Shown piece after piece: positions 5,092-43,276 of a stretch of DNA of 64,000 bases (positions within the stretch are counted from its first letter, which is position 1; each line of letters opens with the position of its first letter). The notes beneath the pieces were generated by a model, which made no database searches, had not been told where the DNA came from, and worked only from the letters and a program-made list of their open reading frames with translations. The DNA is from Escherichia phage SDYTW1-F1-2-2_3, in the sequence record OR296290.1; one strand, written 5' to 3'. The position numbers were made by a program, and so were the translations under genes.

Positions 5092-6063
5092 TTAGTCATT
5101 GTAATACTCCACTAATTCAGAAAAGAGAGATGAGATTGTGTTACCAACTTCTTCAAGAGTAAGACCGGAATCTGCTCCAGTTCTTTGAATCAGTCGGGCT
5201 GTAAAGTTTTGTACTGTAATGTTTCCCAACTTGTCGTCTATTGCTTCACGTTTGTGACCATAACAGTTGGACCAGAGTCTTAACCACTCTGACATTGTTT
5301 CATACTCGTCCGGGTCTTGATCTTTAGCACGAGCAAATCTTCGTAAGGCATCTTGGTTATGGTTACGAACATAACCATTCTCGTTGTCGCCAACACCGAA
5401 GGGGTTTTGAACCCATACTTGCTTCGTGTATTCATCAGAGTCTACAACCAAAGGAAGGAATGCTGCTGCTGACATATTGTTATTAACAACAATAGAGGTG
5501 CTCTCGCTACTCCCATTGGCTCTTCCTCGTTGAGACCACCCACCGAAGAAGTCACGACCCAACCCAGCTAACACTAGAGCGATGCCGATGCGTTTACGCT
5601 TCAGCCACTCTTCCCTGTCTTCAATTCCTTCTGCTAGGAAATCCATTCCACGATACTGCCCTTCCAGAATACTACGGAAAAGCATAAGTCCTGTGAAGAT
5701 CTGATCTGCTGGATGCTCACGGAGGTTGACAGCAACACTATTCGCTGAAGTGATTGTAAATACGTCACGATAGCAAGACATAGAGTTCATAATGTCTGCT
5801 GTTTCAACCAAGTTCTTTTCAATATCAGATGCAACATGACCGTGAAAAGAGTGAGTCCAGTAATTCAACATCTCCAATTGCAAGTTGATATCACGGTTGA
5901 AGCGTCTATAATGCCTCTCTCCCATGATAACTTCACCATTAACATCAGTTACGCACTGGCCTTGCATGTAGTTGTGGATACCGAAGCATCCACGACCTAA
6001 GAACTTCTGTTCCCCTAAATCTTGTTGAAGACTCAGAGGTACGATCGTTGTGGAGATTGACAT
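5092..6063 (-). CDS. hypothetical protein in amidoligase cluster
   Basis: 323-aa ORF co-directional with cluster; family not recognised. Confidence 0.5.
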   Translation of the reverse strand: MSISTTIVPLSLQQDLGEQKFLGRGCFGIHNYMQGQCVTDVNGEVIMGERHYRRFNRDINLQLEMLNYWTHSFHGHVASDIEKNLVETADIMNSMSCYRDVFTITSANSVAVNLREHPADQIFTGLMLFRSILEGQYRGMDFLAEGIEDREEWLKRKRIGIALVLAGLGRDFFGGWSQRGRANGSSESTSIVVNNNMSAAAFLPLVVDSDEYTKQVWVQNPFGVGDNENGYVRNHNQDALRRFARAKDQDPDEYETMSEWLRLWSNCYGHKREAIDDKLGNITVQNFTARLIQRTGADSGLTLEEVGNTISSLFSELVEYYND

Positions 6064-6073
6064 AACTAACCTT

Positions 6074-7270
6074 TTATTTTCCTAAAAATAATCCGCTCAT
6101 AACACCATCCCACTCAGAGGACGGAATCACTGAATACTCCGAACTTTGGTCCAGAGTTCCACTACTAAATCGCTGAACAATGTTATAGATGTTGAACATA
6201 TCTTTAGTCTCAGCGCGATAAGCGTAGACTAGTCTGTCAGCCGTTCTTTCATCTTTAGATACTCGACGAGCAAAGGTAACCAGAAGGTTATCACCTTTCA
6301 GTATTTCTGACTCATCTTTTACTAAATCAGGATGCATAACTGGCAAGAACATCGAGTTATTAACTCTCAATTCTGCTGTTTCGTCATTATCATAATGAAT
6401 CCACTTAAAGTCTTCATCACGGAAGTGACCGCATCCATCTCTGTATGACTGTTGACGCCAAGGTACTTGGAATGCTTCAGCATACTTATCAGCCATGCCT
6501 ACTGTAAACAGCGACGCTGGGAAGATACAAGCATCCCAATCATTACCAACCAGAGTTGCTTTCGTTTCACCCAAGAGGTTAGTGTAAGTGCTAACCATTC
6601 GGGAATAAACGTAAGCCTGAAGGATTGTCCAACCTTCAACCAACCATTTATGAAGGAAGGTTTCAACTTGACTCTCTTCATCTTCACAATAGAAGGTTCG
6701 ATCTAACATCAAATAGAACAGACAACGATCAGCAGGAACATTCTCAGTTGCTACACCCATAAAACCTTTATCGTGCCAGCGTAAACAGGAGGGACGATCT
6801 TTGTCCACAAATGCTTCCATAGCTTCCAGTACAGCACGAGGTGTGGTTTGATGTTCAGGGTTTTTACTGTTCCAACGATCAATGTTATTCTTAGGAGGTG
6901 TGTCTTCATCTTCATACGAACACCAACTTAAAGCTTCAGCTACGTGCTTTCCATCACGCCAGCGTCTAAAACCTAACATCTTCATGTGAGTTCCGGAGTT
7001 CCAGATATGCTTGATTTTACACATATCCATTTCTCGACTTAACAGGAACTCTTCCCCATCAGCACTACGAACGTTAGCTTCTTCATGCCACACTCGAACG
7101 TGCATATTCCACCCATGAGTTGCCTCATACATGTTAGGGTCGAAGTATTCATCTTCGTCATCATCTTCATCAACGCCACCATTATAGTTGCGAAGCTGAA
7201 GGAACCCATAACAAGGAGGGTGGACCGTTAAAACATTACCTTCAGTATCTTCTAATGTTACTGGAAACAT
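6074..7270 (-). CDS. hypothetical protein with acidic tract, in amidoligase cluster
   Basis: 398-aa ORF; DEDDDEDEY acidic run near N-terminus; family not recognised. Confidence 0.5.
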   Translation of the reverse strand: MFPVTLEDTEGNVLTVHPPCYGFLQLRNYNGGVDEDDDEDEYFDPNMYEATHGWNMHVRVWHEEANVRSADGEEFLLSREMDMCKIKHIWNSGTHMKMLGFRRWRDGKHVAEALSWCSYEDEDTPPKNNIDRWNSKNPEHQTTPRAVLEAMEAFVDKDRPSCLRWHDKGFMGVATENVPADRCLFYLMLDRTFYCEDEESQVETFLHKWLVEGWTILQAYVYSRMVSTYTNLLGETKATLVGNDWDACIFPASLFTVGMADKYAEAFQVPWRQQSYRDGCGHFRDEDFKWIHYDNDETAELRVNNSMFLPVMHPDLVKDESEILKGDNLLVTFARRVSKDERTADRLVYAYRAETKDMFNIYNIVQRFSSGTLDQSSEYSVIPSSEWDGVMSGLFLGK

Positions 7271-8365: not shown

Positions 8366-8482
8366 TTATTTAGCTACCTTTTTCTGTCCGTTTACGAACC
8401 AGATAATTGAACCGTCAGGCTGTCGTTGACCGAAGCCTTTCTGATTAATCATATCGTCATAAGAATACGCTTTACGTCTCAT
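8366..8482 (-). CDS. small basic protein (38 aa)
   Basis: ATG overlaps upstream TGA stop (ATGA) suggesting translational coupling; below track length cutoff. Confidence 0.3.
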   Translation of the reverse strand: MRRKAYSYDDMINQKGFGQRQPDGSIIWFVNGQKKVAK

Positions 8483-8739
8483 TTGTTTTCCTGTGGAGTT
8501 AAGATAATTTCAACCTTACTAAACTTCTCACCAACAACCATATCACCAGAGATGACACGTAGTTCTCCCGTGCCTAAATTAACAGCTCCAGCAGGTTGAC
8601 AACCTCTGCTCTTGGCTGTCATCATGTAAATCTTTTGATTCTGGCACTCTTGGAGTGTGAACACATCAGACATGTTTAGATCTTTAACACGAAGAACTGT
8701 CTTTTCTATGAAATCAACCTTGATACTGATAGTGCTCAT
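8479..8739 (-). CDS. small protein, GDVF-family paralog (putative)
   Basis: 86 aa; shares hydrophobic-x-x-(G/S)DVF ... C ... NLGTG pattern with neighbouring small proteins. Confidence 0.45.
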   Translation of the reverse strand: MSTISIKVDFIEKTVLRVKDLNMSDVFTLQECQNQKIYMMTAKSRGCQPAGAVNLGTGELRVISGDMVVGEKFSKVEIILTPQENK

Positions 8740-8744
8740 TGGTG

Positions 8745-8990
8745 TTATTCCTGAACCACTGACATACGAATCACTTCAACTGGGGCATCACTTTTCATAA
8801 CACCTAGTACACCAGTAAGAAGATTAACTGTAGTAATCCAACCTTCTTCGACAGAGATTTTGTTGGATACATTACTAACACGGATGTAGTACTGAGGAGT
8901 TGCTGTTCCTCGCTGAACTACGAAAGGGTTTCCGGGAATAATTGTAGCCAGTGAAACAGTGTTATCTTTAATCTTTGGGATGATCTTCAT
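8745..8990 (-). CDS. hypothetical small protein
   Basis: Track ORF trimmed to ATG at 8988-8990 immediately after upstream stop (8992-8994). Confidence 0.4.
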   Translation of the reverse strand: MKIIPKIKDNTVSLATIIPGNPFVVQRGTATPQYYIRVSNVSNKISVEEGWITTVNLLTGVLGVMKSDAPVEVIRMSVVQE

Positions 8991-8991
8991 A

Positions 8992-9222
8992 TTATTTACC
9001 CTGAATAATGAGTTTCGATTCGAACAGCTCAACAGTATTGGAATGAGGGACTGGAAAGAAAATATCTTTAGAATTCCGAACACCCATTGCAGAGTGGTCC
9101 CCTGTTTTTATCCAGAATTTAGGGACTACATCGTCACCAATAAAACGGAAAACATCTCCATTCTCCAAGTCAGAGAAAGTCTTGGAGGGTTCTTTACTTT
9201 TTGGTACTTGTTCAAAGTTCAT
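8992..9222 (-). CDS. small protein, GDVF-family paralog
   Basis: 76 aa; LENGDVFRF...KFWIKTGD motif. Confidence 0.5.
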   Translation of the reverse strand: MNFEQVPKSKEPSKTFSDLENGDVFRFIGDDVVPKFWIKTGDHSAMGVRNSKDIFFPVPHSNTVELFESKLIIQGK

Positions 9223-9230
9223 CTTGATTC

Positions 9231-9542
9231 CTATTTAAGTTTGAGGCTAATGTTAAGGTGCATACATGCCCTGTTCTGTACAGCAGCATAACTTCTACCG
9301 AGCATGTCAGCCATTCTCTGAATAGACATGAACCCAGCATTACGGATAAGGAACTGGTCTTCTTCTTTAGACCACTTGACTCGGATTACAGCTCTAGAAA
9401 TACCGAACTTAGTGCAAGCTGTATTAACTGCATTCTCCGTTACATTCATAATCTGAGCAACTTCTTGAACCGAGTACTCTTTGATTAGTCTCCGAAGATT
9501 TTCAATCTGCATCGGAGTCCATATAGTTCTTCGAGCTTTCAT
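9231..9542 (-). CDS. DNA-binding protein with two helix-turn-helix (Myb/SANT-like) repeats (putative)
   Basis: W..EEDQFL and VQEVAQIMNVTENAV segments; start set to ATG at 9540-9542 with GGTGG SD. Confidence 0.45.
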   Translation of the reverse strand: MKARRTIWTPMQIENLRRLIKEYSVQEVAQIMNVTENAVNTACTKFGISRAVIRVKWSKEEDQFLIRNAGFMSIQRMADMLGRSYAAVQNRACMHLNISLKLK

Positions 9543-9543
9543 T

Positions 9544-9765
9544 TTACCACCCATGTCGACTTTTAACTAACACACCATCAATTATCAGATAATGCGAATG
9601 CCTTATCATGTCTGAAGACAGATCTCCATGAGCGCTATTCCACTGAAGGAAGTTCATATCCTTCCAATCAGTGTAGTGCTTTTTGGCTTCTTCCTCTATC
9701 TGACTAAGAGTTACCCTTCTGAAAGGATACGGACTATGTTTGATAAGTGTTTCACATTTTGTCAT
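9544..9765 (-). CDS. hypothetical protein
   Basis: 73-aa track ORF. Confidence 0.4.
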   Translation of the reverse strand: MTKCETLIKHSPYPFRRVTLSQIEEEAKKHYTDWKDMNFLQWNSAHGDLSSDMIRHSHYLIIDGVLVKSRHGW

Positions 9766-10060
9766 ATACCCTCCGATTAAATGTTTATATAAGACTTGCT
9801 TAGATAAAGATTCAATAAAATAGGGGGAGGGGACGAATCCTCCCTTATCCTATTAATTACTATTGCATGTAAGATCTAACAATCGGTTGCCTTTTTAGGA
9901 GTAAGCGTTATGCTCATCCAGCACTAAACTCCCGCCCCCTTAGTGGGCTGGGTTATTAAAGGGTAACGCCCTTATGGGCTAGTTACGTGAATGTTAGTTT
10001 GATAGGAGATCTGAAGTCCTATCTCAAAGGACTCTCGTAAGAATCCTTCACGATAAGCTC

Positions 10061-10234
10061 TTAACACGATTGGTCACACGGCTGATCACCGCATGTTTTA
10101 CAGATCACTGGTGAGTAAATACAGGCAGGATATACTGACACACCGTCAAATGTCTCACACCCACAATCAGGGCATGTACCGTTGGATTCCATGTCATAAT
10201 CATCATCCACTTCACCACCACCAAAACAGCTCAT
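10061..10234 (-). CDS. Cys-rich mini-protein (57 aa, zinc-ribbon-like)
   Basis: MSCFGGGEVDDDYDMESNGTCPDCGCETFDGVSVYPACIYSPVICKTCGDQPCDQSC; abuts stop of upstream gene; below track cutoff. Confidence 0.4.
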   Translation of the reverse strand: MSCFGGGEVDDDYDMESNGTCPDCGCETFDGVSVYPACIYSPVICKTCGDQPCDQSC

Positions 10235-10243
10235 ATGAACTCC

Positions 10244-10465
10244 TCAGTAAACTAAACCTATAGCCTTTGCATCAGGCTGAGGGACTACTTTTGCACTAGG
10301 GCGATAGCCATCCACGGAGCCATTCCAAAGATTGACACAGGTGATATACCCATCGTTCAAGTAGTCTGTTTTAATCCAGAAGTGTTTATCATGACCAAAA
10401 ATACTTCCGTTTGGCAGTGTGGACAGTTCAACAGTTTTAAGGGATTGTTTAGAATCTAATTTCAT
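10244..10465 (-). CDS. small protein, GDVF-family paralog
   Basis: 73 aa; LPNGSIFGHDKHFWIKTD...CVNLWNGSV. Confidence 0.5.
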   Translation of the reverse strand: MKLDSKQSLKTVELSTLPNGSIFGHDKHFWIKTDYLNDGYITCVNLWNGSVDGYRPSAKVVPQPDAKAIGLVY

Positions 10466-10474
10466 ATAAGTTCC

Positions 10475-10672
10475 TTAACATACCAAACCGTGTAAAAGAA
10501 ACATCCTCTTTGTAAGCTCTGCTTTAGCTCTGTAATAAGCCTTAGAACCTAATAGGCGGCTCTTAACAAAGAACTTGATGTCATTGCTAACATCTTGTAT
10601 TAAACGCTCCTGTACAGCTTCTGAGGAGCTATTAATCGAATCAATTAACACCTTTGTAGACGTGTAATTCAT
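10475..10672 (-). CDS. hypothetical small protein
   Basis: Track ORF trimmed to ATG at 10670-10672 directly after upstream stop. Confidence 0.35.
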   Translation of the reverse strand: MNYTSTKVLIDSINSSSEAVQERLIQDVSNDIKFFVKSRLLGSKAYYRAKAELTKRMFLLHGLVC

Positions 10673-10673
10673 A

Positions 10674-10973
10674 TCACCATTCCTTACCGGTTGTAGTCGT
10701 AGAGCCACCACACCACAACGCTGTATCAATCACAACATTGTCTGGCGTAGACTTCTCTTCATTAATAGAAGGGTTAGCATTAGAGCAGGTTGCTCCGTTC
10801 CAGCGCATATCAATCTCACCAGAAGGAACCTTCTCACCTTTATGCCAGCGAGATACACAAATACCATCCACTGCTACTGCACACCATCCATCAGGACGGC
10901 TCTGTACGCAGCCTGTAAGGGCCACACAGACAAGGAAGATACAGATTAAGGATATTACACCACCCCAACTCAT
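10674..10973 (-). CDS. lipoprotein (putative)
   Basis: N-terminal MSWGGVISLICIFLVCVALTGC has signal-peptide h-region and LTGC lipobox; Cys-rich mature part. Confidence 0.5.
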   Translation of the reverse strand: MSWGGVISLICIFLVCVALTGCVQSRPDGWCAVAVDGICVSRWHKGEKVPSGEIDMRWNGATCSNANPSINEEKSTPDNVVIDTALWCGGSTTTTGKEW

Positions 10974-11077
10974 AACTGCCTCCTATTTGATTTGGCGCAC
11001 CGTGTAGGACTCCAACCTACAACCCATTTCTTAGAAGGAAATTGCTCTCTGCAATTGAGCTAACGGCGCAGAATTAT

Positions 11078-11242
11078 TTAGATCATATCTCGCTTGGTGA
11101 TATGACCACATGTCTTACATTGAAGTATATAACGGGTTCCAGTATCTTCTATTTTACCGAACTCATCATACACATTTAAACGAATCTCTTTGACTGTCTC
11201 CCACTCGTGAAGATGGAAGAGATATTTAAACCACTTGAACAT
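11078..11242 (-). CDS. small protein (54 aa) with CxxC..H motif
   Basis: MFKWFKYLFHLHEWETVKEIRLNVYDEFGKIEDTGTRYILQCKTCGHITKRDMI; SD AGAGGGA; packed against neighbours. Confidence 0.35.
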   Translation of the reverse strand: MFKWFKYLFHLHEWETVKEIRLNVYDEFGKIEDTGTRYILQCKTCGHITKRDMI

Positions 11243-11243
11243 A

Positions 11244-11417
11244 TCAATCCCTCTTTTTACGGAACTCTGTCAGATTGAAGATCTTAGCGTCACTTACAGA
11301 AACCCCTTGATTTCTATGGGCGCGGTCTCTGGCTCGTCGTATCTGTTGCTTGCTTAAGAAAAGAACGAGTGAGTATTCTTCTCCATCTTCGAAAAATTTA
11401 ACCTCTTTTCTTTTCAC
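11244..11417 (-). CDS. small basic protein (GTG start, putative)
   Basis: GTG at 11415-11417 preceded by GAGG SD 5 nt upstream; avoids overlap with 11425-11676. Confidence 0.3.
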   Translation of the reverse strand: MKRKEVKFFEDGEEYSLVLFLSKQQIRRARDRAHRNQGVSVSDAKIFNLTEFRKKRD

Positions 11418-11424
11418 ATTAACC

Positions 11425-11676
11425 TCAAGCACAAGCAGGGAGAGTGATGATTTTATATCGACCCTCAAACTCTCCAAATAAACCCAAGAATGTAGGACTG
11501 TAAGTACCAGTACAAACAAACTCATCAAACAGTGCGTTATAGCTAGGCTTAATCTTCCAAGCCCATACATAACCCATCTTGTCAATTGCAATGTAACGAG
11601 TGTTCAGAGGAACAGTCATCATTACACCGTCAACTTCGATCACTTTAGTGATTGGTGCAGCTTGAAAGTTTTTCAT
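11425..11676 (-). CDS. hypothetical protein
   Basis: 83-aa track ORF; ATG overlaps stop of upstream mini-gene (ATGA). Confidence 0.45.
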   Translation of the reverse strand: MKNFQAAPITKVIEVDGVMMTVPLNTRYIAIDKMGYVWAWKIKPSYNALFDEFVCTGTYSPTFLGLFGEFEGRYKIITLPACA

Positions 11677-11849
11677 ACTTTACCTTTAATAAAGATATCA
11701 TTACCACAGACACAGCATGAACGAACAACAGTAGCGCCACGCTGAACGATACGAACCTCTTCCTTAACCAGATTAACACGAGCACCACAGCAAGGAGAGT
11801 TAACATAAGAGTAACCAGCTTGTGTATTCTTGATTGTTTGCTTAGACAT
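11673..11849 (-). CDS. Cys-rich mini-protein (58 aa, zinc-ribbon-like)
   Basis: MSKQTIKNTQAGYSYVNSPCCGARVNLVKEEVRIVQRGATVVRSCCVCGNDIFIKGKV; AAGAGGAAG SD; verified codon by codon. Confidence 0.4.
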   Translation of the reverse strand: MSKQTIKNTQAGYSYVNSPCCGARVNLVKEEVRIVQRGATVVRSCCVCGNDIFIKGKV

Positions 11850-11890
11850 TTTAGCTTCCTCTTGTTAGTTTAAGTAAGAGTTGTCCCTTA

Positions 11891-11924
11891 ATTAAAACAA
11901 CAAAGGCCACCCGATTGGGCAGCC
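11891..11924 (-). terminator. rho-independent terminator (minus strand)
   Basis: On minus strand GGCUGCCC-AAUC-GGGUGGCC (two G-U pairs) then UUUGUUGUUUU. Confidence 0.5.
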
Positions 11925-11934
11925 TTTTTATCTA

Positions 11935-12075
11935 TTAACTATTATATGTCCAACTACCTTGCTTGTTACGAATAGCTGACATTGCATGAATCCAGAAGCC
12001 TTCCAGTTTCAGAGCACCGTTAGCTACTGCATCCATACGTTCAGGGCGGTTCATACGTTTGGTTGATACTTTCAT
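11935..12075 (-). CDS. small protein (46 aa)
   Basis: MKVSTKRMNRPERMDAVANGALKLEGFWIHAMSAIRNKQGSWTYNS; followed by a minus-strand terminator. Confidence 0.3.
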   Translation of the reverse strand: MKVSTKRMNRPERMDAVANGALKLEGFWIHAMSAIRNKQGSWTYNS

Positions 12076-12330
12076 ACCTATCTCTCTTTGTTAGTGGAGG
12101 CATTATTGCCAGTTAATATAAAGGGAAGCCCTACACGTTAAGGCTTCCGCTTGTACAAACTGTCGAGAACTCTCTACCCCTAGATTGTTCTCTATCCCAA
12201 ACCGATACGTACCCCTACATATCAGAAAGTCTTTCGAAAATTAACAGGTTTTAGTCTAACACCGGATGTTCGAGCAAGCTCTCCCTAGCGGTGTGGCATA
12301 TGCCTGATTAATAAGTTAATGAGGAACACC

Positions 12331-12377
12331 CTCACATAGCCCTCTGATAAACACAAGGGCTATAGGTCGGTGTTACT
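12331..12377 (-). promoter_or_regulatory. conserved stem-loop element at gene 3' end (copy 2)
   Basis: Same arms ATAGCCC/GGGCTAT with different loop; overlaps stop codon of 12373-12591. Confidence 0.4.
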
Positions 12378-12591
12378 TTTGAGATAAACACAGATCAGGA
12401 CGTGGCATAACAGTGGTTGATAGGCCGAAGACTTCAACAGAACCACTGTTCAAGTCAGCAGCTTTACACAAACCGTCAGGAGTTTTATCTTCTAGCATCA
12501 GCCAGAAACGTCTGTCGTAAGAGAAAACATCACCACCCTTAACATCTTCTGCATTTGCATATTTAGGATAATCAACTACTTTAATGTCCAT
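12373..12591 (-). CDS. small protein, GDVF-family paralog
   Basis: VKGGDVFSYDRRFWLMLED...C..DLNSGSV. Confidence 0.5.
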   Translation of the reverse strand: MDIKVVDYPKYANAEDVKGGDVFSYDRRFWLMLEDKTPDGLCKAADLNSGSVEVFGLSTTVMPRPDLCLSQK

Positions 12592-12601
12592 CTAATTGCC
12601 C

Positions 12602-12820
12602 TTATTGATAGATAGAAAGGTGGATAAGTTTATTCACATGAGCGAAGTTAGGAAGGATTTGCATCTCATTGTTGAAGATATTAAAACAACGAACCCCGCC
12701 CTCTACAGCATAAGCAGATTTCTGAAACAAACTCCCTCCCCACACAAACACATCATGTGTTTCAAGAGATCGTAACTGAACAGCCTCGTCAACAACCTTC
12801 TTTTCAATGTTCATATTCAC
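12602..12820 (-). CDS. small protein, GDVF-family paralog
   Basis: LETHDVFVWGG...GGVRCFNIFN. Confidence 0.45.
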   Translation of the reverse strand: MNMNIEKKVVDEAVQLRSLETHDVFVWGGSLFQKSAYAVEGGVRCFNIFNNEMQILPNFAHVNKLIHLSIYQ

Positions 12821-13068
12821 TTCCGATTGGTAATTACTGCATCATGGATAACTGAAACAGGTAAGTTTGAATCCAACTTCATTACTTGATTGGTGCTTAA
12901 ACTAAGCACTACACAACCATTCCGAAGATCAGTCTCTGACACATGTGGTGTATATAACTGAACGATCATGTAATAATCAATACATGTTGCCTTAACTTGG
13001 AACACATCACCAAGTTTCAAATCACCCACACGCAATTCTTTAGCTTTAAGGTTCAGATCAATCTTCAT
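12817..13068 (-). CDS. small protein, GDVF-family paralog
   Basis: LKLGDVFQVKATC...DLRNGCVV. Confidence 0.5.
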   Translation of the reverse strand: MKIDLNLKAKELRVGDLKLGDVFQVKATCIDYYMIVQLYTPHVSETDLRNGCVVLSLSTNQVMKLDSNLPVSVIHDAVITNRK

Positions 13069-13294
13069 CTTTAGCCTCTATGTTGGTTATGTGGAGATCA
13101 CTACGCACTTGGCAGACCTCATCCCGTTTAAAAGGCATGAGCTTTCCAGTTACTACATCAACACAGTTGACATAATTGTCTGCGTACAATGTGTCGGTTC
13201 TGATGTAAAGGGACTCTTTACGCTCAAACAGAACTCCCGGCTTCATATTATTTAAGCGAAGCATTGTACGATCGGATTTAATATTAACTTTCAC
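13058..13294 (-). CDS. small protein, GDVF-family-like (GTG start predicted)
   Basis: GTG at 13292-13294 with AGGAG SD 7 nt upstream; MKPGVLFERKESLYIRTD...CVDVVTG pattern; ATG at 13264 is an alternative start. Confidence 0.35.
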   Translation of the reverse strand: MKVNIKSDRTMLRLNNMKPGVLFERKESLYIRTDTLYADNYVNCVDVVTGKLMPFKRDEVCQVRSDLHITNIEAKDED

Positions 13295-13779: not shown

Positions 13780-14169
13780 TTATTCCCTAGAGCTATTATC
13801 GAACACTAAATCACCACAATACATAGGATTGGCATACCATTTTGGCACCCCTTCGCTCTTACTCTGAAAGTAAGTCCCACTATACAGCGGAACATAATTC
13901 TTCTTAAGGGCACGTTTAGCAAGTCGCTCGCTTTCTCCAATGGCTTGCTTAGTCATCGGATTTTTATCACGAATCAGCTTTACATAACGTTTATAAGGTT
14001 TCTCCTGTTTTAATAGTACCGGAATCCACTCAAACTGGTTCTTTTGTCTTATCACCTGTTCAGCGGTCAGTTTTCGTTGAGCCATTCTATTTATTACGGT
14101 ATCCGCAACTAAAGCCTTACATGCGGTTGGCTGGTTCCCTGCCTCATAATAAATAGTCAATGTCAACAT
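13780..14169 (-). CDS. cell-wall hydrolase, SleB-like (putative)
   Basis: 129 aa; YYEAGNQ...ALVADTVINR and C-terminal PKWYANP..YCGDLVF resemble SleB-type hydrolase motifs. Confidence 0.45.
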   Translation of the reverse strand: MLTLTIYYEAGNQPTACKALVADTVINRMAQRKLTAEQVIRQKNQFEWIPVLLKQEKPYKRYVKLIRDKNPMTKQAIGESERLAKRALKKNYVPLYSGTYFQSKSEGVPKWYANPMYCGDLVFDNSSRE

Positions 14170-36578: not shown

Positions 36579-37382
36579 TTGGCTATCGAAAATAATGCGG
36601 TAGTAGTTACCGACTTGAATCCACTCTATCCTCGTGATAGGGATTATATCTACGAAGGGGCGGCTCAAATCCGCCTCATCAAACAAACACTACAAAACAC
36701 ATTCCCCAATATCACTGAACCAGTTAATGTTGATTCTGATACTTTTAAGATTATATCAGAGAAGCTCAAGTTTACTGGTGATTCAATGGATGTTGGTGGG
36801 CTTATGATTAAGAACGCTACTCCGGGAACTGGTGATAAAGATGTTGTCACTAAGGGTCAGATGGAAGCATTCATGAAGAATTGGATGGAGAATAAACTTT
36901 ATCGTATTGGTTCTTATTACATCACTGAGGAAGATATTAATCCGGGTGATTCTATCTCTCTTGGGTTTGGTTCTTGGGCTAAGGTTACTGGTGTTATCAT
37001 GGGTACTGGTGTAGTTAACCCTGATGGTTCGGTTCCTAATGCTCAGCGTGTTGAATTCCAAGCAGGTGGTACAGGTGGTCGTGTATTTAATACCATTCGC
37101 ACTGAGAACGTACCTCTTATGACGATTGACGGTTCTAGTTTTAAAGTTTCAAGTAACACCCACTCACATAACATGGTCTTTGGTCGTGGAGATGCAAGTG
37201 GACACAACAGCTCTCCAAACTGGTATAACCCAGGAACTGGATACAGTAAGAGAACTGAAGCAGACACTCACACTCACACCATTTCTGGTTCTGTTAGTTT
37301 TGGTCGTGATGACATCTCACGTCAACCTATTAACACTTTGCCACCATTCAGAGCGGCTCACATTTGGAGACGTATTAGCTAA
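36579..37382 (+). CDS. tail fibre-like/receptor-binding protein (putative); TTG start
   Basis: 267 aa; first in-frame start after upstream stop is TTG with GGAGGTG SD; Gly/Thr/Ser-rich beta-type sequence. Confidence 0.4.
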   Translation: MAIENNAVVVTDLNPLYPRDRDYIYEGAAQIRLIKQTLQNTFPNITEPVNVDSDTFKIISEKLKFTGDSMDVGGLMIKNATPGTGDKDVVTKGQMEAFMKNWMENKLYRIGSYYITEEDINPGDSISLGFGSWAKVTGVIMGTGVVNPDGSVPNAQRVEFQAGGTGGRVFNTIRTENVPLMTIDGSSFKVSSNTHSHNMVFGRGDASGHNSSPNWYNPGTGYSKRTEADTHTHTISGSVSFGRDDISRQPINTLPPFRAAHIWRRIS

Positions 37383-37391
37383 GGAGGAATT

Positions 37392-40391
37392 ATGGCGCTG
37401 TATCCAATCAAGTCTTTAGGTGCTATAGGCGTAATTGCTGATCAGGCTCCAACGGACTTAGCTCCTAATGCTTTCACTAATGCTATAAACGCTCGCTTTG
37501 TTGAGCAGAGGGTTTTTAAGACGGGGGGCAATGCCCCTCTTTCTTACGTAGATGAAGATAAAGATTTAACACCTCTGTCTTTTGTATCTATGCCTTTTGA
37601 CTACTATAGCGCAGGCAATAGCTTTCTTGTTGTGGGAACCGATAAGAAGTTATATAAGCTGACAGATGAAAGCTTGACTGATATAAGCCGTAAGGTTGCT
37701 ACAGTCACTAAGAGGGCTTCTGCCTCTATTAAGATTTATCCAGTTGTTTCTAGAATTATTCCTAAAGAGACTGCAATCTCTATGAACTTTAACCAGACTA
37801 AAGCTCTCGAAGTTTCTGTTCTTCCAGAGGATGCTAACAATGCTGAACTGGTCTGGAGTTTAAGTAATTCTTCTTATGGTCAGATAACAGTAGACCCGAC
37901 AGATTCTAAGAAAGCTTCTCTAAAATCTCTGAGTAAGGAAGGTAATCTAGTTGTTACCGTGAAGACTAAAGATGAGACAGTATCTGCTCAGATTGCTGTT
38001 AATATCATTGATGGTGATTCAGGTATCTTCTTAAGCCAAGACACGGTGACTGTCCGTAAAGGAAGCAATACTACGATTACAGCTGTTACTGGAAAAACTC
38101 CTGTGAGCTGGTCTACTAACAACGGAGCTATTGTATCAGTTGTTCCTAACACAAATACCCTAACTGCTGTTATCACAGCTAACGGCACAGGAACTGCAAC
38201 CATTACAGCAGACAATGGAACGAAGACTGCTACTTGTACTGTTAACGCAATACCTCAGATTGATAGTGTTTCTTTAAGTCAGACTGATGTTACTGTTAAC
38301 AGAGGTACTCAGTATATTCTCACAGCTACAGTATCTCCAGCTAATGCTCCTAATAAGAACATTACTTGGACCTCCTCTAATCCAAACATTGCTACAGTAT
38401 CTGGCACAGGAACAGAAGCTACCATCACTGCAATTACAGCTGGGTTTACAGAGATTACTGCTACTACTCAAGAAGGTAATAGAACTGCTGTTTGTACTGT
38501 CCGTGTTGAGCTTGCTGGTAGAATGTTAAGATCTTCCTTTATGGCAACAGCAGAACCAGAACCAGTTTCTGAAGAAGTTGTAGTTCCTGAATCAGAGGAT
38601 GTTGTTTATTTTGCAGCACCTACATCTGGAATAGACACAACAGGGATGGCTGAAGGTAATAGCTTCTACGACTACTCTAACGTAAACGATATGGAAGGTT
38701 TTGCAAGAGCTTCTCTCTTTGCCACTCCTCTTGATTCTGTAACATTAGATGTTGTCAGTGCTTCTCTTGATGTTGGAGAAGAGATTGTTATTACAGCTAC
38801 TGCTTCCCCTGAAGGAGAGTATTCATACCTTTGGTCTGTAGATAAAACTGGTTATGTTTCTACAACATCTGTAACAGGGAAAACACTTAAACTTACCGCT
38901 CTTCGTAAAGGTGAGATTAATGTAACTTGTACAGTAAGCCAGATGACTCAGAGAGACTATGATGCATTTGATGATTATCCTTGGTATCATGCAGTAATCT
39001 CCAACTGTGCAGTAGCAACCACTCATTATGAAACACCTCAGGTTAAAGAGTTTGAATCTGAATATTTTGTAGATCTTCCGGGATGGGGTGAACAGACAGT
39101 AGTGGATAATGATGGGAACCCTTCGGTTAAGAAATTCAACTGGAAGTGTGAGAGAGTAAGATCTTTCAACAACAGATTGTTTGCTCTGAATATGAGGGAG
39201 TCTAATGCATCTGGTGTTACCACTAACTACCCGCTTCGTCTTCGTTGGTCTAACTTTGCCAATGAGAACAAAGCTCCTACGTTATGGGATGACTTCGCTT
39301 ATGATCGAGTTGTGTCTTCGGACCTAGCTTCTAATATCGTAGGTCAGACTCAGGCGCTAGAGAATGGCTACGCTGGTTACATAGACTTGGCTGACTCTAA
39401 CGGTAGCTTGATTGATATTCTTCCTCTTAAAGATTACTTGTTCGTTTATACAGAGTTTGAAACGTACATTGGTTCTCCAACTAATAACACGTACCAGCCT
39501 CTTATGTTCAAGAAACTCTTTAACGATTCCGGTATCCTTGCCCCTGAGTGTGTAGTAGAAGTTGAAGGTAGTCATTTCGTAGTCACTCAGAACGACGTGA
39601 TCTTACACAATGGTGCAACTAAGAAGTCAATCGCTTCTAACCGTGTTAAGAATATGCTGATTAATGAGATATGTCTGGTTAACCCTTTAGCAACTCGGGT
39701 GCATTTGCATCAGGACAAGAAAGAAGTTTGGGTTCTCTATGTAGGTCCGGGAGAGCCGAAAGAAAGCTTCGCTTGTACTAAAGCTGCTGTATGGAACTAC
39801 GAGTTTGATACTTGGTCTTTCCGTACTATCCCATATGCTCAATGTATTGGTCTGGTTGATCCTCCTGTTCTTGAGAGAGGTCCAATCTGGGCTGACTTCC
39901 AAGAGATCACCTGGGATGACCCTTCAATCAAAGAGCTTGTTTGGAGAAAAGATGCAACTAACTTCCGTCAGAGGGTTACTATAGTAGGTTCGTTCTTACG
40001 AGGTTTCTATCAAGTGGATGTTGGTGCTTTGGATTACTTCTATGATAGGCTTAATGATAAGGTTATAGAAAAACCACTGGAGATGAGGTTAGAGAGAACT
40101 GGTATGGATTTTGATAACATCACTAACGAATGGAATCAGAAACATATCAACAGGTTCAGACCTCAGACGACAGGTTCCGGTACGTATACTTTTGAAGCAG
40201 GTGGTAGTCAATTCTCTAACGAGTATGGTCATCCACACACATCTAAGACGTATACGATTGGTGTTGATAGGCATGTCTCGGTGAGACTGAACCATCCATA
40301 CCTTTTCTATAATGTTATAGATAATGATGTTAACAGTAATGCTGCTATCAATGGGTTAACGATAGAGTTTGCTGTTGGCGGGCGGAGATAA
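37392..40391 (+). CDS. large virion protein with multiple Ig-like (Big_2-type) domains
   Basis: 999 aa; at least three segments with ...VTV..G....ITA.V.P..A.N..V.W.S.N..IATV... pattern. Confidence 0.55.
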   Translation: MALYPIKSLGAIGVIADQAPTDLAPNAFTNAINARFVEQRVFKTGGNAPLSYVDEDKDLTPLSFVSMPFDYYSAGNSFLVVGTDKKLYKLTDESLTDISRKVATVTKRASASIKIYPVVSRIIPKETAISMNFNQTKALEVSVLPEDANNAELVWSLSNSSYGQITVDPTDSKKASLKSLSKEGNLVVTVKTKDETVSAQIAVNIIDGDSGIFLSQDTVTVRKGSNTTITAVTGKTPVSWSTNNGAIVSVVPNTNTLTAVITANGTGTATITADNGTKTATCTVNAIPQIDSVSLSQTDVTVNRGTQYILTATVSPANAPNKNITWTSSNPNIATVSGTGTEATITAITAGFTEITATTQEGNRTAVCTVRVELAGRMLRSSFMATAEPEPVSEEVVVPESEDVVYFAAPTSGIDTTGMAEGNSFYDYSNVNDMEGFARASLFATPLDSVTLDVVSASLDVGEEIVITATASPEGEYSYLWSVDKTGYVSTTSVTGKTLKLTALRKGEINVTCTVSQMTQRDYDAFDDYPWYHAVISNCAVATTHYETPQVKEFESEYFVDLPGWGEQTVVDNDGNPSVKKFNWKCERVRSFNNRLFALNMRESNASGVTTNYPLRLRWSNFANENKAPTLWDDFAYDRVVSSDLASNIVGQTQALENGYAGYIDLADSNGSLIDILPLKDYLFVYTEFETYIGSPTNNTYQPLMFKKLFNDSGILAPECVVEVEGSHFVVTQNDVILHNGATKKSIASNRVKNMLINEICLVNPLATRVHLHQDKKEVWVLYVGPGEPKESFACTKAAVWNYEFDTWSFRTIPYAQCIGLVDPPVLERGPIWADFQEITWDDPSIKELVWRKDATNFRQRVTIVGSFLRGFYQVDVGALDYFYDRLNDKVIEKPLEMRLERTGMDFDNITNEWNQKHINRFRPQTTGSGTYTFEAGGSQFSNEYGHPHTSKTYTIGVDRHVSVRLNHPYLFYNVIDNDVNSNAAINGLTIEFAVGGRR

Positions 40392-40434: not shown

Positions 40435-41448
40435 ATGGGTGCAGGTGGTTTTCGTAAGAACACTGGTCGCAATAACACCACACTCCCGTACAACGTTGGG
40501 TTTCTCAATAATGTACAGGACACAGAAACTTATAACGTAGCCGTGTATGATGAACTACAGAAAGTCAGCACAGCTACTAACCAAATGTTCCAAGCTATTG
40601 ATGAGATTCACGATGAGATTGATGTTCGTATCAAAGCTCTTAATGCGATGAACTTACAATTTGATGAGCTTGAGAACAGGATTACTACAGAGATTGAAAC
40701 AGCTATTGCAGACATCATCACACAGATGGGCAACTTATCCACTGATGACATTTGGGATAACTCAGTACAGCCTCCGGTTAAACTGGAAAGCTCTATCTCT
40801 GGTATTAAAACAAGTATCGAAGGCAATGATTTAAAGATTCAAACTGTGCAAGGGATTGTTAATGACCAAGGTGAAGAGATTGCTTTGGTTCAAACAGAAT
40901 TAACCTCTCAAGGTCAACAAATCTCTGACGTAGACGGCAGAGTTACCACTGTTCAAAACTCTCTATCCCAGTACATGAAGCTTACCTCATACGAAGCAAC
41001 TTGGGGTGTTAACTCTTCTGTTAACGGTCAGTACGCTGGAGTTAAGCTAACTAACAATGGAACAAACAGTCAATTCCAAGTAACAGCTAACAAGTTCATC
41101 GTTGGTAATGGCACGACAGGGAATACTCCTTTTGTGTTTGAGAACGGAAGAGCTAGGATGGAGTTCGCTGATATAAAGAACGTCAACATTACAACTGCTA
41201 TGATTGCTAATGCTAGGATTCAGTGGGCACAGATTGATAATGTTAGTATAACAAATGCACAAATAACGAGTTTATCTGCTAATAAAATAACAGCGGGAGC
41301 TATGAGTGGTTCAAACTGGAGACTCACTGTTGGTGGTGATTTTCAATTAGGTGCTGGTTCTGGTAGTAACCGGTTGTGGATGAATGGTAGCCGTATCGAC
41401 TTCTATGATGCAAGCGGTACGCTCCGTATTAGAATAGGGACTTGGTAA
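40435..41448 (+). CDS. tail-associated structural protein (putative)
   Basis: Track ORF trimmed to ATG 40435 with GGAGGAA SD; helical N-half, beta-rich C-half. Confidence 0.45.
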   Translation: MGAGGFRKNTGRNNTTLPYNVGFLNNVQDTETYNVAVYDELQKVSTATNQMFQAIDEIHDEIDVRIKALNAMNLQFDELENRITTEIETAIADIITQMGNLSTDDIWDNSVQPPVKLESSISGIKTSIEGNDLKIQTVQGIVNDQGEEIALVQTELTSQGQQISDVDGRVTTVQNSLSQYMKLTSYEATWGVNSSVNGQYAGVKLTNNGTNSQFQVTANKFIVGNGTTGNTPFVFENGRARMEFADIKNVNITTAMIANARIQWAQIDNVSITNAQITSLSANKITAGAMSGSNWRLTVGGDFQLGAGSGSNRLWMNGSRIDFYDASGTLRIRIGTW

Positions 41449-41449
41449 T

Positions 41450-42484
41450 ATGGCATATGGAATATGGACAACACCAGCCGGGCCGGGACCAGCTTCTCCG
41501 GCTGAGCTTTTTATCGACAGTGGTACTACTTTCCCTCAATTAAGAAACAGGGTCAGTGGTAATTTCACCTTTAATGGCAAAACATGTGATCTACCTATCA
41601 GTGGGTGGGATGGTAGTGGTCAGATAGTTATAGTACCTACAGGTTCTGTGGTTTGGGAACGATACATACCTCCTAACGTAACATCAGACGTCTACTGGCT
41701 AACTAATATATCTGTTATTAACAGGTCTACTTTCAGAGTTACTATGGATTACAATGTTAATGGTTGGATATTTGATATGGCTTTTAATGTTTATCAAATC
41801 TGGCCTAGGGCGAATAGAAACTACGGCATAACCTTTTCCAACTCAGCAGATTACTTCTCTATCTCTGATGCAGGTGTTGTTGGTCAGTGTATCTGGGCTT
41901 GGGAGGGAAATATAAATAGTTCTATGCAAATCCCAGCTATTAGCGGTTTTGATATGAATAGAGCGTCTGTTTTTGCTAACTGGAACAACGGGAGTGCTGG
42001 ACTGCTGTATAACCCTTCTAACAGGACTGTGTATGTTTATCAAAACAGATCTCATAATAACGGGAACACAAACCAAACAGGCTCTATTAGCGGCGTTAGA
42101 ATCGCAGTATTCTGTGATGGTGCGGGAGTTCCTACTCACAACGGTGGACTAAACATATATTCCCCTAATGGTTCTCAATGTGTATTTTCCACATACAGAA
42201 CACCTTTCATGGTTGATAGGTTTATGCCTATGAGTGGGGGCAATACCACATTGTCATACCCTATGATTCCTCTTTCTTATGGAGCTGGAGCCATAAGAGG
42301 AAGCGCTAGTGGATGGTATTTCCAACATGCAAGATCTCACACAATGAGTGGTTCTTCCTTTGGTACAGGTTATGGTAGGATGATCTATTCTTGGTCCAAC
42401 CAATATGACTTAGGTGGAGGTGGGGCTATTGGTTTAAACATCCCAGTCCTAGATGCTAGGAAGATTTTTAGAAGCATACAATAA
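41450..42484 (+). CDS. virion structural protein
   Basis: 344 aa; start overlaps upstream stop (TAATATG). Confidence 0.45.
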   Translation: MAYGIWTTPAGPGPASPAELFIDSGTTFPQLRNRVSGNFTFNGKTCDLPISGWDGSGQIVIVPTGSVVWERYIPPNVTSDVYWLTNISVINRSTFRVTMDYNVNGWIFDMAFNVYQIWPRANRNYGITFSNSADYFSISDAGVVGQCIWAWEGNINSSMQIPAISGFDMNRASVFANWNNGSAGLLYNPSNRTVYVYQNRSHNNGNTNQTGSISGVRIAVFCDGAGVPTHNGGLNIYSPNGSQCVFSTYRTPFMVDRFMPMSGGNTTLSYPMIPLSYGAGAIRGSASGWYFQHARSHTMSGSSFGTGYGRMIYSWSNQYDLGGGGAIGLNIPVLDARKIFRSIQ

Positions 42485-42493
42485 GGAGAGCTT

Positions 42494-43276
42494 ATGGCAA
42501 TTAGAATGGGTATAGAAGAACTAGACCCGATGGTTCAACAGGCTTCAAAGAAGTATGGAATACCAGCTGCTTTGATTCATGCTGTAATTCAAAGGGAGTC
42601 TAGTGGTCGTCCTAAAGTGGCTTCCGGAACTGGTCCTGTTGGTTTAATGCAGATCAGTAAAGGGTTAGCCAAAGACTATGGTTACAAACTAGAAGACAGA
42701 CTTGACCCAGCAAAGAATATCGATATGGGTGCTCGTTATATAAGAGATAACCTGAAAGCTTTCAACGGTGATGTTAAGAAAGCAATGGTTGGTTACTCAG
42801 AAGGAACTGGTGGTGCTAAGCAGATGTTCGCTGGTAAGAAAGGATTTACTCCTCAAGCTCTTGACTCAATGAACAACAAACACTTCCTCCCGTTTTATGG
42901 TGATGCAGCTTCTCAGATTGCTAACCCAATTGGAGCTTTGCAAGCTGTTCAACCAGTCAATCAGTTTAATCCTGACTTGTTAGACAGAGAGAAGGCTGCA
43001 CAAGCTCCCACTCAGGCAGAGATTGCTGCTTCTAAGACAGGTGCTTTAGGTGGTAATCCGGTAGAGTTTTACTCTGATGAAGTCCAAGAAGGAGAAGACC
43101 AGAAGCCTCAACAGAACTTTGGTAATGCAGTATTAGGAGTAGCTGCTATGCTTGCTGGTAAACCTCCTACATCTCAAACAGTTCAGAGAGCGAGTGCACC
43201 ACATGCGGCAGGTTCTCAGTACAGCCCACAAACACAAGCAGTGCTTAGACGTTTGGCTAGCATTGGTGTTAAGTAA
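42494..43276 (+). CDS. virion-associated lytic transglycosylase (SLT domain)
   Basis: 260 aa; QRESSGRP...GPVGLMQI matches the SLT catalytic-Glu motif. Confidence 0.65.
   Translation: MAIRMGIEELDPMVQQASKKYGIPAALIHAVIQRESSGRPKVASGTGPVGLMQISKGLAKDYGYKLEDRLDPAKNIDMGARYIRDNLKAFNGDVKKAMVGYSEGTGGAKQMFAGKKGFTPQALDSMNNKHFLPFYGDAASQIANPIGALQAVQPVNQFNPDLLDREKAAQAPTQAEIAASKTGALGGNPVEFYSDEVQEGEDQKPQQNFGNAVLGVAAMLAGKPPTSQTVQRASAPHAAGSQYSPQTQAVLRRLASIGVK

What the first reader, a model, noticed from the sequence alone, without database searches (positions are those of the whole stretch)
10674..10973. Early-expressed lipoprotein, candidate superinfection-exclusion or receptor-masking factor
The 99-aa protein has a clear lipoprotein signal (hydrophobic core then LTGC lipobox) and a Cys-rich mature domain, yet lies in the early leftward block rather than the lysis region. 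Early phage lipoproteins are known to block receptors or inhibit periplasmic steps of secondary infection.
Basis: inference. Interest (0 to 1): 0.45.

Follow-up and report, generated by a model that had tools for sequence, protein, structure and literature searches.

The report
Phage lipoprotein that likely blocks LptD
This small phage gene encodes a lipoprotein related to one solved bound to the bacterial LPS exporter LptDE, where it blocks further phage attachment; the same genome also carries a relative of the matching LptD-binding tail protein, which points to a still untested receptor for this group of therapeutic coliphages.

Summary
The ORF at 10674..10973 (-) is real: 99 aa, strong Shine-Dalgarno, LTGC lipobox, under purifying selection, and conserved in about 90 phiEco32-like (Kuravirus) podovirus genomes.

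It belongs to Pfam PF24052. It is homologous end to end to Rtp45, the superinfection-exclusion lipoprotein of siphophage Rtp. Rtp45 was solved by cryo-EM on the periplasmic face of the LPS translocon LptDE (PDB 9RPS), where it displaces loop EL4 so that the phage receptor-binding protein (RBP) cannot bind.

The same window also encodes, 30.5 kb away in the late block (41450..42484, +), a DUF6453 protein. It is homologous to the LptD-binding RBPs of small siphophages (PDB 9RPT) and lies directly after a tail needle with a J-like tip. In every siphovirus locus sampled the lipoprotein co-occurs with such an RBP, usually adjacent. Phages that use FhuA or YncD lack both, and so does the related podovirus 7-11.

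No paper in the searchable library links Kuravirus to LptD.

Caveats:
- Nothing here is experimental.
- The RBP homologue was not detected in SU10 virions.
- The signal peptide has no charged n-region.

The parts
10674..10973 (-). Gene for a 99-aa Rtp45-family (PF24052) lipoprotein. Signal peptide 1-21, lipid Cys22. Conserved core 26-60 (RPDGWC...G.C...W..G..VPSGEID.R..G). Hypervariable loop closed by Cys63 and Cys88. C-terminal GKEW.
10979..10984 (-). Shine-Dalgarno AGGAGG, 5 nt upstream of the ATG
   Evidence: read from the sequence
10993..11069 (-). tRNA-Arg(TCT) immediately upstream on the same strand. The arrangement is conserved in phiEco32.
10475..10672 (-). 65-aa ORF of unknown function (phrog_13462). 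Its ATG lies 1 nt after the lipoprotein stop, so it is probably co-transcribed and translationally coupled.
41450..42484 (+). 344-aa DUF6453 (PF20051) protein, homologue of the LptD-binding receptor-binding proteins of small siphophages (Rtp44, Oekolampad RBP) and positional homologue of SU10 CDS19. Proposed cognate RBP of the lipoprotein.
40438..41448 (+). Tail needle (SU10 gp18 homologue) with a Phage_Tail_Tip domain, homologous to the C-terminal ~280 aa of J-like central tail fibres. It ends 1 nt before the DUF6453 gene. Proposed carrier of the RBP.

Best explanation
The gene encodes a small lipoprotein of the Rtp45 family. It is made from the leftward early block of a phiEco32-like (Kuravirus) podovirus.

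Proposed mechanism:
1. After Sec export, lipidation at Cys22 and Lol sorting, the protein sits in the inner leaflet of the outer membrane.
2. There it binds the periplasmic rim and lumen of the LPS translocon LptDE.
3. As in the Rtp45-LptDE structure, a disulfide-stapled (Cys31-Cys39) beta-hairpin would push extracellular loop EL4 of LptD outward and hold LptD in a state that DUF6453-type receptor-binding proteins cannot enter.
4. The infected cell, and later its debris, therefore stops binding phages that use LptD.

The phage's own DUF6453 protein (41450..42484) is encoded right after a J-like tail needle. It is proposed to be the tip receptor-binding protein, which would make LptD the terminal receptor of this phage.

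Shown here: the gene, its family membership, the homology to Rtp45, the conserved cysteines and hairpin motif, the RBP and needle homologies, and the co-occurrence pattern.

Taken from the literature: what Rtp45 and the Oekolampad RBP do.

Inferred: that this protein does the same, that it is expressed early, and that the DUF6453 protein is on the virion.
For: Homology of the lipoprotein to Rtp45:
- PF24052 scores 118.7 bits against a cut-off of 27. Rtp45 is in the same family at E=1.3e-37. PDB 9rps_D matches at E=1.2e-13 over residues 6-66.
- The alignment runs end to end. It includes the Rtp45 disulfide pair C30-C38, which equals C31-C39 and is invariant in 23 family members. It also includes the VP[SA]GE[IV]D.R[YF].G hairpin motif and the C-terminal G.KEW.
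- I count 19 identities in 36 residues (53%) in the core (my count).

What the relatives do (literature):
- Rtp45 binds periplasmic LptDE and blocks RBP binding (PMC12685063).
- The LptD-type RBP family is one of four unrelated families, each specific for one receptor (preprint 10.64898/2026.04.02.716166; PMC8594841).

The cognate RBP in the same window:
- The window ORF is DUF6453 at E=1.2e-25, 90.9 bits against a cut-off of 25.
- It matches the Oekolampad RBP, PDB 9rpt_C, at E=3.9e-12 over 280 residues.
- tblastn with Rtp44 finds it at E=3e-14.
- The preceding needle is homologous to the distal ends of J proteins (T1 gp33, E=2.7e-12; Phage_Tail_Tip, E=3e-26).

Co-occurrence:
- In 21 of 24 siphovirus loci from IMG/VR the lipoprotein gene is followed 2-6 nt later by a DUF6453 gene. 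In 20 of these the match covers the full-length RBP on the same strand. In one (L035) it is only a 122-aa partial match on the opposite strand.
- In 3 Webervirus loci the RBP lies about 10 kb away.
- Pfam confirmed the pair in Shfl1, mEp021 and L2P5.
- T1 (FhuA) and IsaakIselin (YncD) have neither family.
- The related C3 podovirus 7-11 keeps nozzle and short-fibre homologues but lacks needle, RBP and lipoprotein together.

Other support:
- Purifying selection: dN/dS 0.14-0.38.
- Precedent for reading a receptor from the blocking lipoprotein: DT57C/BF23 Llp and BtuB (PMC4728585).
Against: - No experiment exists on this protein.
- The DUF6453 homologue of SU10 (CDS19) was not among 34 proteins detected by mass spectrometry of SU10 particles, although the three-copy needle gave 75% coverage. 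It is also not mentioned in the SU10 cryo-EM paper.
- The RBP is only about 25% identical to the siphovirus RBPs. It does not match the first 26 positions of the Pfam model, which may be the tail-docking part (my inference).
- The needle's last ~75 residues align with the FhuA-type J of T1, not with the LptD-type J proteins.
- The signal peptide has no Lys or Arg in its n-region, unlike almost all the siphovirus family members aligned (MK...; Rtp45 itself has its first Lys at position 6).
- A 24-aa insertion (Cys63-Cys88 loop) absent from Rtp45 could change binding.
- The AF2 model was unusable (pLDDT 47.7).
Confidence: 0.65

Rival explanations
1. Same family and same fold, but retargeted. The Kuravirus lipoprotein and DUF6453 pair has diverged to act on a different outer-membrane protein, or on LptD in a different way, so exclusion works but LptD is not the target.
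For: - The RBP is only about 25% identical to LptD-binding RBPs.
- The lipoprotein carries an extra hypervariable disulfide loop.
- Receptor specificity of DUF6453 proteins has been tested only in E. coli siphoviruses.
Against: - The lipoprotein core that forms the LptD-contacting strand and hairpin in Rtp45 is the best-conserved part. I count 53% identity there, and dN/dS in residues 23-62 is about 0.19-0.24.
- The four RBP families at the siphovirus locus are each tied to one receptor.
Confidence: 0.15
2. Heterotypic exclusion only. The lipoprotein shuts LptD to keep competing LptD-dependent siphophages out of the infected cell. The Kuravirus itself enters through O-antigen and LPS core, and its DUF6453 protein is not a virion receptor-binding protein.
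For: - SU10 CDS19 was not detected in virions and is not mentioned in the cryo-EM paper.
- The lipoprotein gene is unlinked from the DUF6453 gene and lies in the early block.
- Published models need no protein receptor.
Against: - The DUF6453 gene sits in the middle of the tail and ejection gene row, 1 nt after the needle gene.
- It is conserved in about 91 Kuravirus records.
- Needle, RBP and lipoprotein are absent together in phage 7-11.
Confidence: 0.12
3. A lysis or envelope-remodelling lipoprotein: for example an o-spanin, or a factor that throttles LPS export to change the cell surface, rather than an exclusion factor.
For: - It is a small Cys-containing outer-membrane lipoprotein.
- A weak endolysin-like ORF lies 2.8 kb upstream (13780..14169, phrog_938 E=2e-7).
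- Binding LptDE could in principle affect LPS transport.
Against: - There is no i-spanin partner. The adjacent genes are small ORFs of unknown function.
- Homology is to Rtp45, not to spanins.
- LptM stays bound in the Rtp45 complex, and the structure paper reports no transport block.
Confidence: 0.05

Closest known systems
Rtp45 of siphophage Rtp (PDB 9RPS chain D; Pfam PF24052) and the orthologous superinfection-exclusion lipoproteins of LptD-dependent small siphophages (Bas01, Bas18 and others)
   Same: - Same Pfam family, with an end-to-end alignment.
- Lipobox Cys.
- Conserved disulfide pair.
- Hairpin motif VPSGEID.RY.G.
- C-terminal G.KEW.
- Co-occurrence with a DUF6453 RBP in the same genome.
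   Different: - 39% identity overall.
- A 24-aa insertion closed by a second conserved Cys pair (C63-C88) that varies in length (18, 24 or 33 aa) among Kuraviruses.
- Uncharged n-region (MSWGG...).
- The host virus is a podovirus.
- The gene is 30.5 kb from the RBP gene, in the early block downstream of a tRNA, instead of directly upstream of the RBP gene.
Llp of phage T5 (and BF23-type Llp)
   Same: Works like it:
- A small outer-membrane lipoprotein made early.
- It binds the periplasmic face of the phage's own receptor.
- It prevents RBP binding, giving exclusion and protecting progeny from debris (literature cited).
   Different: - No detectable sequence similarity (no Llp chain among PDB hits at E<=10).
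- The target is the TonB-dependent transporter FhuA or BtuB, and the action is allosteric.
- llp lies next to the RBP gene.
Cor of T1, phi80 and N15 (FhuA-directed exclusion lipoprotein)
   Same: A small phage lipoprotein at the RBP locus of T1-like phages that excludes phages using the same receptor.
   Different: - T1 Cor scores 17.7 bits on PF24052, below the cut-off of 27.
- Its similarity to family members is mainly the signal peptide.
- T1 has no DUF6453 protein.
Unlinked PF24052 lipoprotein of Klebsiella Weberviruses (e.g. TAH8)
   Same: The lipoprotein gene is separated by about 10 kb from the DUF6453 gene and sits among DNA-metabolism genes. The split arrangement is therefore not unique to Kuravirus.
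   Different: - A siphovirus.
- A 73-aa protein without the second Cys loop.
- The gene is not annotated in several records.

Membership tests
Rtp45-type phage lipoprotein (Pfam PF24052) | Scores above the Pfam gathering threshold over the whole model | tested here: met
   118.7 bits against 27, residues 3-99 on model positions 1-80 of 80
Rtp45-type phage lipoprotein (Pfam PF24052) | N-terminal lipoprotein signal peptide with a lipobox Cys | tested here: met
   L-T-G-C at 19-22 after an uncharged hydrophobic core. The lipid Cys is invariant in 23 sequences. Caveat: there is no K/R in the n-region, and processing was not tested.
Rtp45-type phage lipoprotein (Pfam PF24052) | Cysteine pair equivalent to the Rtp45 Cys30-Cys38 disulfide | tested here: met
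   C31 and C39 align with C30 and C38 and are invariant
Rtp45-type phage lipoprotein (Pfam PF24052) | Conserved hairpin segment and C-terminal G.KEW | tested here: met
   KVPSGEIDMRWNG and TGKEW are present
Rtp45-type phage lipoprotein (Pfam PF24052) | A DUF6453 receptor-binding protein encoded in the same genome | tested here: met
   Window ORF 41450..42484, Pfam E=1.2e-25. 24 of 24 siphovirus loci also have one.
Rtp45-type phage lipoprotein (Pfam PF24052) | Gene immediately upstream of, and co-oriented with, the RBP gene (the siphovirus module) | tested here: not met
   Here the two genes are 30.5 kb apart on opposite strands. They are adjacent in 21 of 24 siphovirus loci.
Rtp45-type phage lipoprotein (Pfam PF24052) | Binds LptDE and confers resistance to the cognate phage | not testable with these tools
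   Known for Rtp45 only
T5 Llp family | Sequence homology to Llp | tested here: not met
   No Llp chain among PDB sequence hits up to E=10. Pfam gives only PF24052.
Cor family (T1, phi80, N15) | Sequence homology of the mature domain to Cor | tested here: inconclusive
   - T1 Cor reaches only 17.7 bits on PF24052.
- The window protein has no significant tblastn hit on T1.
- Shfl1p52 against Cor gives E=4e-6, mostly over the signal peptide.
o-spanin | Encoded within, overlapping or next to an i-spanin gene in a lysis cassette | tested here: not met
   The neighbours are small ORFs of unknown function. No spanin or holin family was found.

The most novel reading that the evidence does not exclude
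[quoted passage not shown] A so far unassigned DUF6453 protein (the SU10 CDS19 homologue) rides on the J-like tail needle and inserts into open LptD. An early Rtp45-like lipoprotein then closes the same door from the periplasm. The needle tip, RBP and blocking lipoprotein would be a siphovirus host-recognition module transplanted into a podovirus and split between the late and early transcription units.
Probability: 0.5. Interest if true: 0.72.

Novelty: new variant of a known kind. Interest (0 to 1): 0.6.

Why it matters
Kuraviruses are common, broad-host-range, restriction-resistant coliphages used in therapy and biocontrol work. Their terminal receptor is not known. Current models stop at O-antigen plus a presumed LPS-core contact by the short fibres (PMC11990801, PMC9509320).

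A blocking lipoprotein of the LptD-specific family, together with a homologue of the LptD-binding RBP, gives a concrete and cheaply testable candidate: the essential, conserved LptDE complex.

If confirmed:
- It would explain what the tail needle contacts.
- It would give a role to an unassigned conserved late gene.
- It would predict cross-exclusion between Kuraviruses and LptD-dependent siphophages in cocktails.
- It would add a second virion architecture that exploits LptD in E. coli. A Pseudomonas N4-like podovirus was recently reported to use LptD (PMC12892993).

It would also show that the receptor-blocking gene can be moved to the early unit, which shuts the receptor sooner than co-expression with the tail genes.

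Tried and rejected
- NCBIfam: no family.
- The search for homologous proteins: only 10 close relatives, because of the word index.
- Exhaustive profile search: 18 hits. The three long repetitive proteins (P0018, P0023, P0027) are summed weak repeats and not relatives.
- PDB hits to designed armadillo repeats (residues 64-98) have no single significant stretch and are spurious.
- The search for related loci with the broad 23-sequence alignment failed for lack of a conserved stretch. An 8-sequence alignment worked.
- The AF2 model of the lipoprotein had pLDDT 47.7, with only the signal helix confident, so I ran no fold search on it. The structure paper likewise reports that AF3 mispredicts Rtp45.
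- The promoter scan is not above chance (34 found, 40 expected), so I assign no promoter to the gene. Terminator-like sites are enriched (24 against 11).
- The original Rtp paper (Wietzorrek 2006, PMC1367250) is not held. The exclusion phenotype of Rtp45 is therefore taken from later papers that cite it.
- Spanin and lysis role rejected. Llp and Cor membership rejected or inconclusive.
- Strict co-variation of lipoprotein and RBP variants within Kuravirus was looked for and not found: SGF2 is 99% (lipoprotein) but 64% (RBP) identical to the window.

Full report
**1. Observation**

The ORF is exactly as described: 10674..10973 on the minus strand, ATG start, 99 codons.

- The sequence shows AGGAGG five bases before the ATG.
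- tRNA-Arg(TCT) ends 19 bases upstream on the same strand.
- The next ORF starts one base after the stop.

The N-terminus, MSWGGVISLICIFLVCVALTGC, is an uncharged hydrophobic stretch ending in the lipobox L-T-G-C, and a PROSITE-style lipobox pattern matches. It lacks any Lys or Arg in the n-region. The residue after the lipid Cys is Val, which by the +2 rule predicts outer-membrane sorting.

The mature 78 residues hold four more cysteines (31, 39, 63, 88). All four are invariant in close homologues.

The ORF is a real gene:
- Pfam PF24052 'Phage lipoprotein family', E=1.1e-34.
- PHROG 4281, E=6e-34.
- Presence in 383 phage records.
- dN/dS of 0.14-0.38 between orthologues in this frame.

**2. 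Where the window comes from**

The region is 92-94% identical to phiEco32-like podoviruses (Kuravirus, Gordonclarkvirinae). The protein is 100% identical in phage 172-1.

It is the orthologue of phiEco32 gene 106, annotated 'putative phage lipoprotein', which has the same tRNA-Arg upstream.

In phiEco32 the leftward cluster at the right genome end is the experimentally defined early class. It is driven by sigma-70 promoters at its start (PMC8948821). In SU10, CDS 25-68 are taken as middle genes and the genes beyond them as early (PMC4281155). 'Early' is therefore a positional inference.

My promoter scan was not above chance. The neighbouring genes are all small ORFs of unknown function, and no lysis cassette partner is present.

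**3. What the protein is related to**

A search of PDB sequences gave one real hit: 9rps chain D, 'Phage lipoprotein', E=1.2e-13. This is Rtp45 of siphophage Rtp.

Dunbar et al. (PNAS 2025, PMC12685063) solved it bound to Shigella LptDE:
- It sits on the periplasmic side, sandwiched between LptE and LptM.
- It pairs a strand (residues 30-35) with LptD.
- It has a Cys30-Cys38 disulfide.
- It sends a hairpin up the lumen, which displaces extracellular loop EL4 by up to 20 Å so that the RBP cannot bind.

Rtp45 is itself a strong PF24052 member (E=1.3e-37).

Aligning the full Rtp45 sequence with the window protein and 21 other family members shows that the homology runs end to end. Shared features are:
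- the lipid Cys;
- RPDGWC;
- the second Cys;
- the VPSGEID.RY.G hairpin motif;
- the C-terminal G.KEW.

The Kuravirus proteins differ by an insertion closed by a second conserved Cys pair (C63-C88). Its length is 18, 24 or 33 residues in different Kuraviruses, and its dN is two to four times that of the core.

T1 Cor, the FhuA-directed exclusion lipoprotein, does not reach the family threshold. No Llp chain appears among the PDB hits.

**4. The cognate partner**

In Rtp the lipoprotein gene rtp45 is directly followed by rtp44, the proposed LptD-binding RBP. Rtp44 is Pfam DUF6453.

A tblastn of Rtp44 against the window found a 304-residue match at 41555-42448 (E=3e-14). The ORF is 41450..42484 (+), 344 aa.
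- It is DUF6453 at E=1.2e-25, 90.9 bits against a cut-off of 25.
- It matches PDB 9rpt chain C, the Oekolampad RBP solved inserted into open LptDE, at E=3.9e-12 over 280 residues.
- By my count from the alignment, Gln299 of the Oekolampad RBP aligns with Gln318 here. The paper names Gln299 as bonding LptD Ser350.

The ORF lies in the tail and ejection gene row:
- short tail fibre (36579..37382);
- nozzle (37392..40391);
- tail needle (40438..41448);
- the DUF6453 ORF, one base later;
- the SLT ejection protein (42494..43276).

The needle carries a Phage_Tail_Tip domain (E=3e-26). It aligns with the last ~280 residues of J-like central fibres (T1 gp33, E=2.7e-12; Shfl1p50, 4e-8; Rtp43, 5e-5). 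That is the part of siphovirus tails thought to carry the separate RBP (PMC8594841).

**5. Is the lipoprotein-RBP link general?**

A scan of IMG/VR with a family alignment returned 29 loci. Local tblastn gave the following:
- In 21 of 24 siphovirus loci a DUF6453 gene begins 2-6 nt after the lipoprotein gene. One of these (L035) is only a partial match on the opposite strand.
- In three Webervirus loci it lies about 10 kb away.
- In five Kuravirus loci it lies beyond the 10-kb flank.

Pfam confirmed the pair in Shfl1, mEp021 and a Dhillonvirus.

Phage groups hit by the two proteins in the phage database largely coincide.

Negative controls:
- T1 (FhuA) has no DUF6453 protein.
- The YncD-type locus of IsaakIselin has neither family.
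- The related prolate podovirus 7-11 has nozzle and short-fibre homologues but lacks needle, DUF6453 and lipoprotein together.

A 2026 preprint reports that four unrelated RBP families at the siphovirus locus are each tied to one receptor (FhuA, BtuB, LptD, YncD). It cites the Rtp accessory protein as the LptD-face exclusion factor.

The association is not symmetrical. Salmonella phage Oslo has a DUF6453 gene after J with no adjacent lipoprotein gene.

**6. Mechanism proposed**

The most economical reading is a two-part system.
- The late DUF6453 protein, carried by the needle, recognises LptD.
- The early lipoprotein occupies LptDE from the periplasm. It prevents further binding by this phage and by other LptD-dependent phages, and it spares progeny from adsorbing to debris, as for T5 Llp.

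Using a blocking lipoprotein to infer the receptor has a precedent in DT57C and BF23 (PMC4728585).

**7. What speaks against it**

- SU10 CDS19, the positional homologue, was not among 34 proteins detected in SU10 particles, although the three-copy needle had 75% coverage.
- The SU10 cryo-EM paper does not mention it.
- The RBP homology is distant (about 25% identity), and the first 26 positions of the Pfam model, which may be the docking part, are not matched.
- The needle's extreme C-terminus resembles T1's FhuA-type J rather than the LptD-type J proteins.
- The signal peptide is atypical.
- RBP and lipoprotein variants assort independently within Kuravirus.
- Published models place O-antigen and LPS core as the receptors.
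- The AF2 model of the lipoprotein was not usable.

**8. Novelty**

The family is catalogued, the phiEco32 orthologue has been annotated as a lipoprotein since 2008, and the mechanism is known for Rtp45. The lipoprotein is therefore not a new kind of thing.

What is new here:
- the podovirus context;
- the split of the module between early and late units, which is also seen in Weberviruses;
- the extra variable disulfide loop;
- above all, the implication that Kuraviruses have an LptD-type recognition module.

Full-text searches for LptD together with Kuravirus, phiEco32, SU10, Gordonclarkvirinae or DUF6453 found no paper making that link. The LptD-phage papers do not mention podoviruses of this group.

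**9. Verdict**

- Observation: confirmed.
- Interpretation: supported and sharpened.
- Confidence: 0.65 that this is an LptDE-directed exclusion lipoprotein, and about 0.5 that LptD is the Kuravirus terminal receptor.
- Interest: 0.6.

Noticed in passing
window 8479-13294, minus strand: The early block around the lipoprotein gene holds a set of small (72-86 aa) paralogous ORFs (phrog_6570, 16423, 7832). Examples: 10244..10465 against 12373..12591 (E=7e-9), against 13058..13294 (2e-6), and against 8745..8990 (1e-3). Function unknown.
   Followed up: partly
window 13780-14169, minus strand: A 129-aa ORF in the early block with weak similarity to an endolysin PHROG (phrog_938, E=2e-7). It resembles a cell-wall hydrolase, which is unexpected away from a lysis cassette.
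   Followed up: no
window 10061-10234, 11078-11242, 11673-11849, minus strand: Three mini-ORFs (54-58 aa) next to the lipoprotein gene carry paired CxxC-type cysteines, like zinc ribbons. All are in PHROGs of unknown function.
   Followed up: no
window 17499-17976, minus strand: Two near-consensus sigma-70-like promoters (TTGACA-17-TATAGT at 17976-17948 and TTGACA-17-CATAAT at 17527-17499) lie near the top of the leftward block. They are candidates for the early promoters described for phiEco32. The minus-strand early and plus-strand late blocks diverge around 19.9-21.3 kb, so the window is permuted relative to the phiEco32 record.
   Followed up: partly
L043 (Klebsiella phage TAH8, MH633484) 1501-1719: The PF24052 lipoprotein gene of this Webervirus is not annotated. 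It lies between a hypothetical gene and the Dam methylase gene, about 10 kb from the DUF6453 RBP gene. This is a second lineage with the split arrangement.
   Followed up: partly
L042 (Salmonella phage vB_SosS_Oslo) 2174-3133: Here a DUF6453 gene follows J directly on the same strand, and no lipoprotein gene is annotated next to it. DUF6453 can therefore occur without an adjacent PF24052 partner.
   Followed up: no
L002 (T1) 29623-29850 and L004 (Shfl1) 5992-6222: T1 Cor and the LptD-type lipoprotein Shfl1p52 share an almost identical signal peptide (MKKLI.II.AAFILTGC; tblastn E=4e-6 over residues 1-52), while their mature parts hardly align. This could be distant homology or recombination at the signal-peptide boundary.
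   Followed up: no
window 40438-41448 against L002 (T1 gp33): The last ~75 residues of the Kuravirus tail needle align with the extreme C-terminus of T1's FhuA-type J protein (to residue 1166 of 1172). They do not align with the LptD-type J proteins of Rtp or Shfl1.
   Followed up: partly
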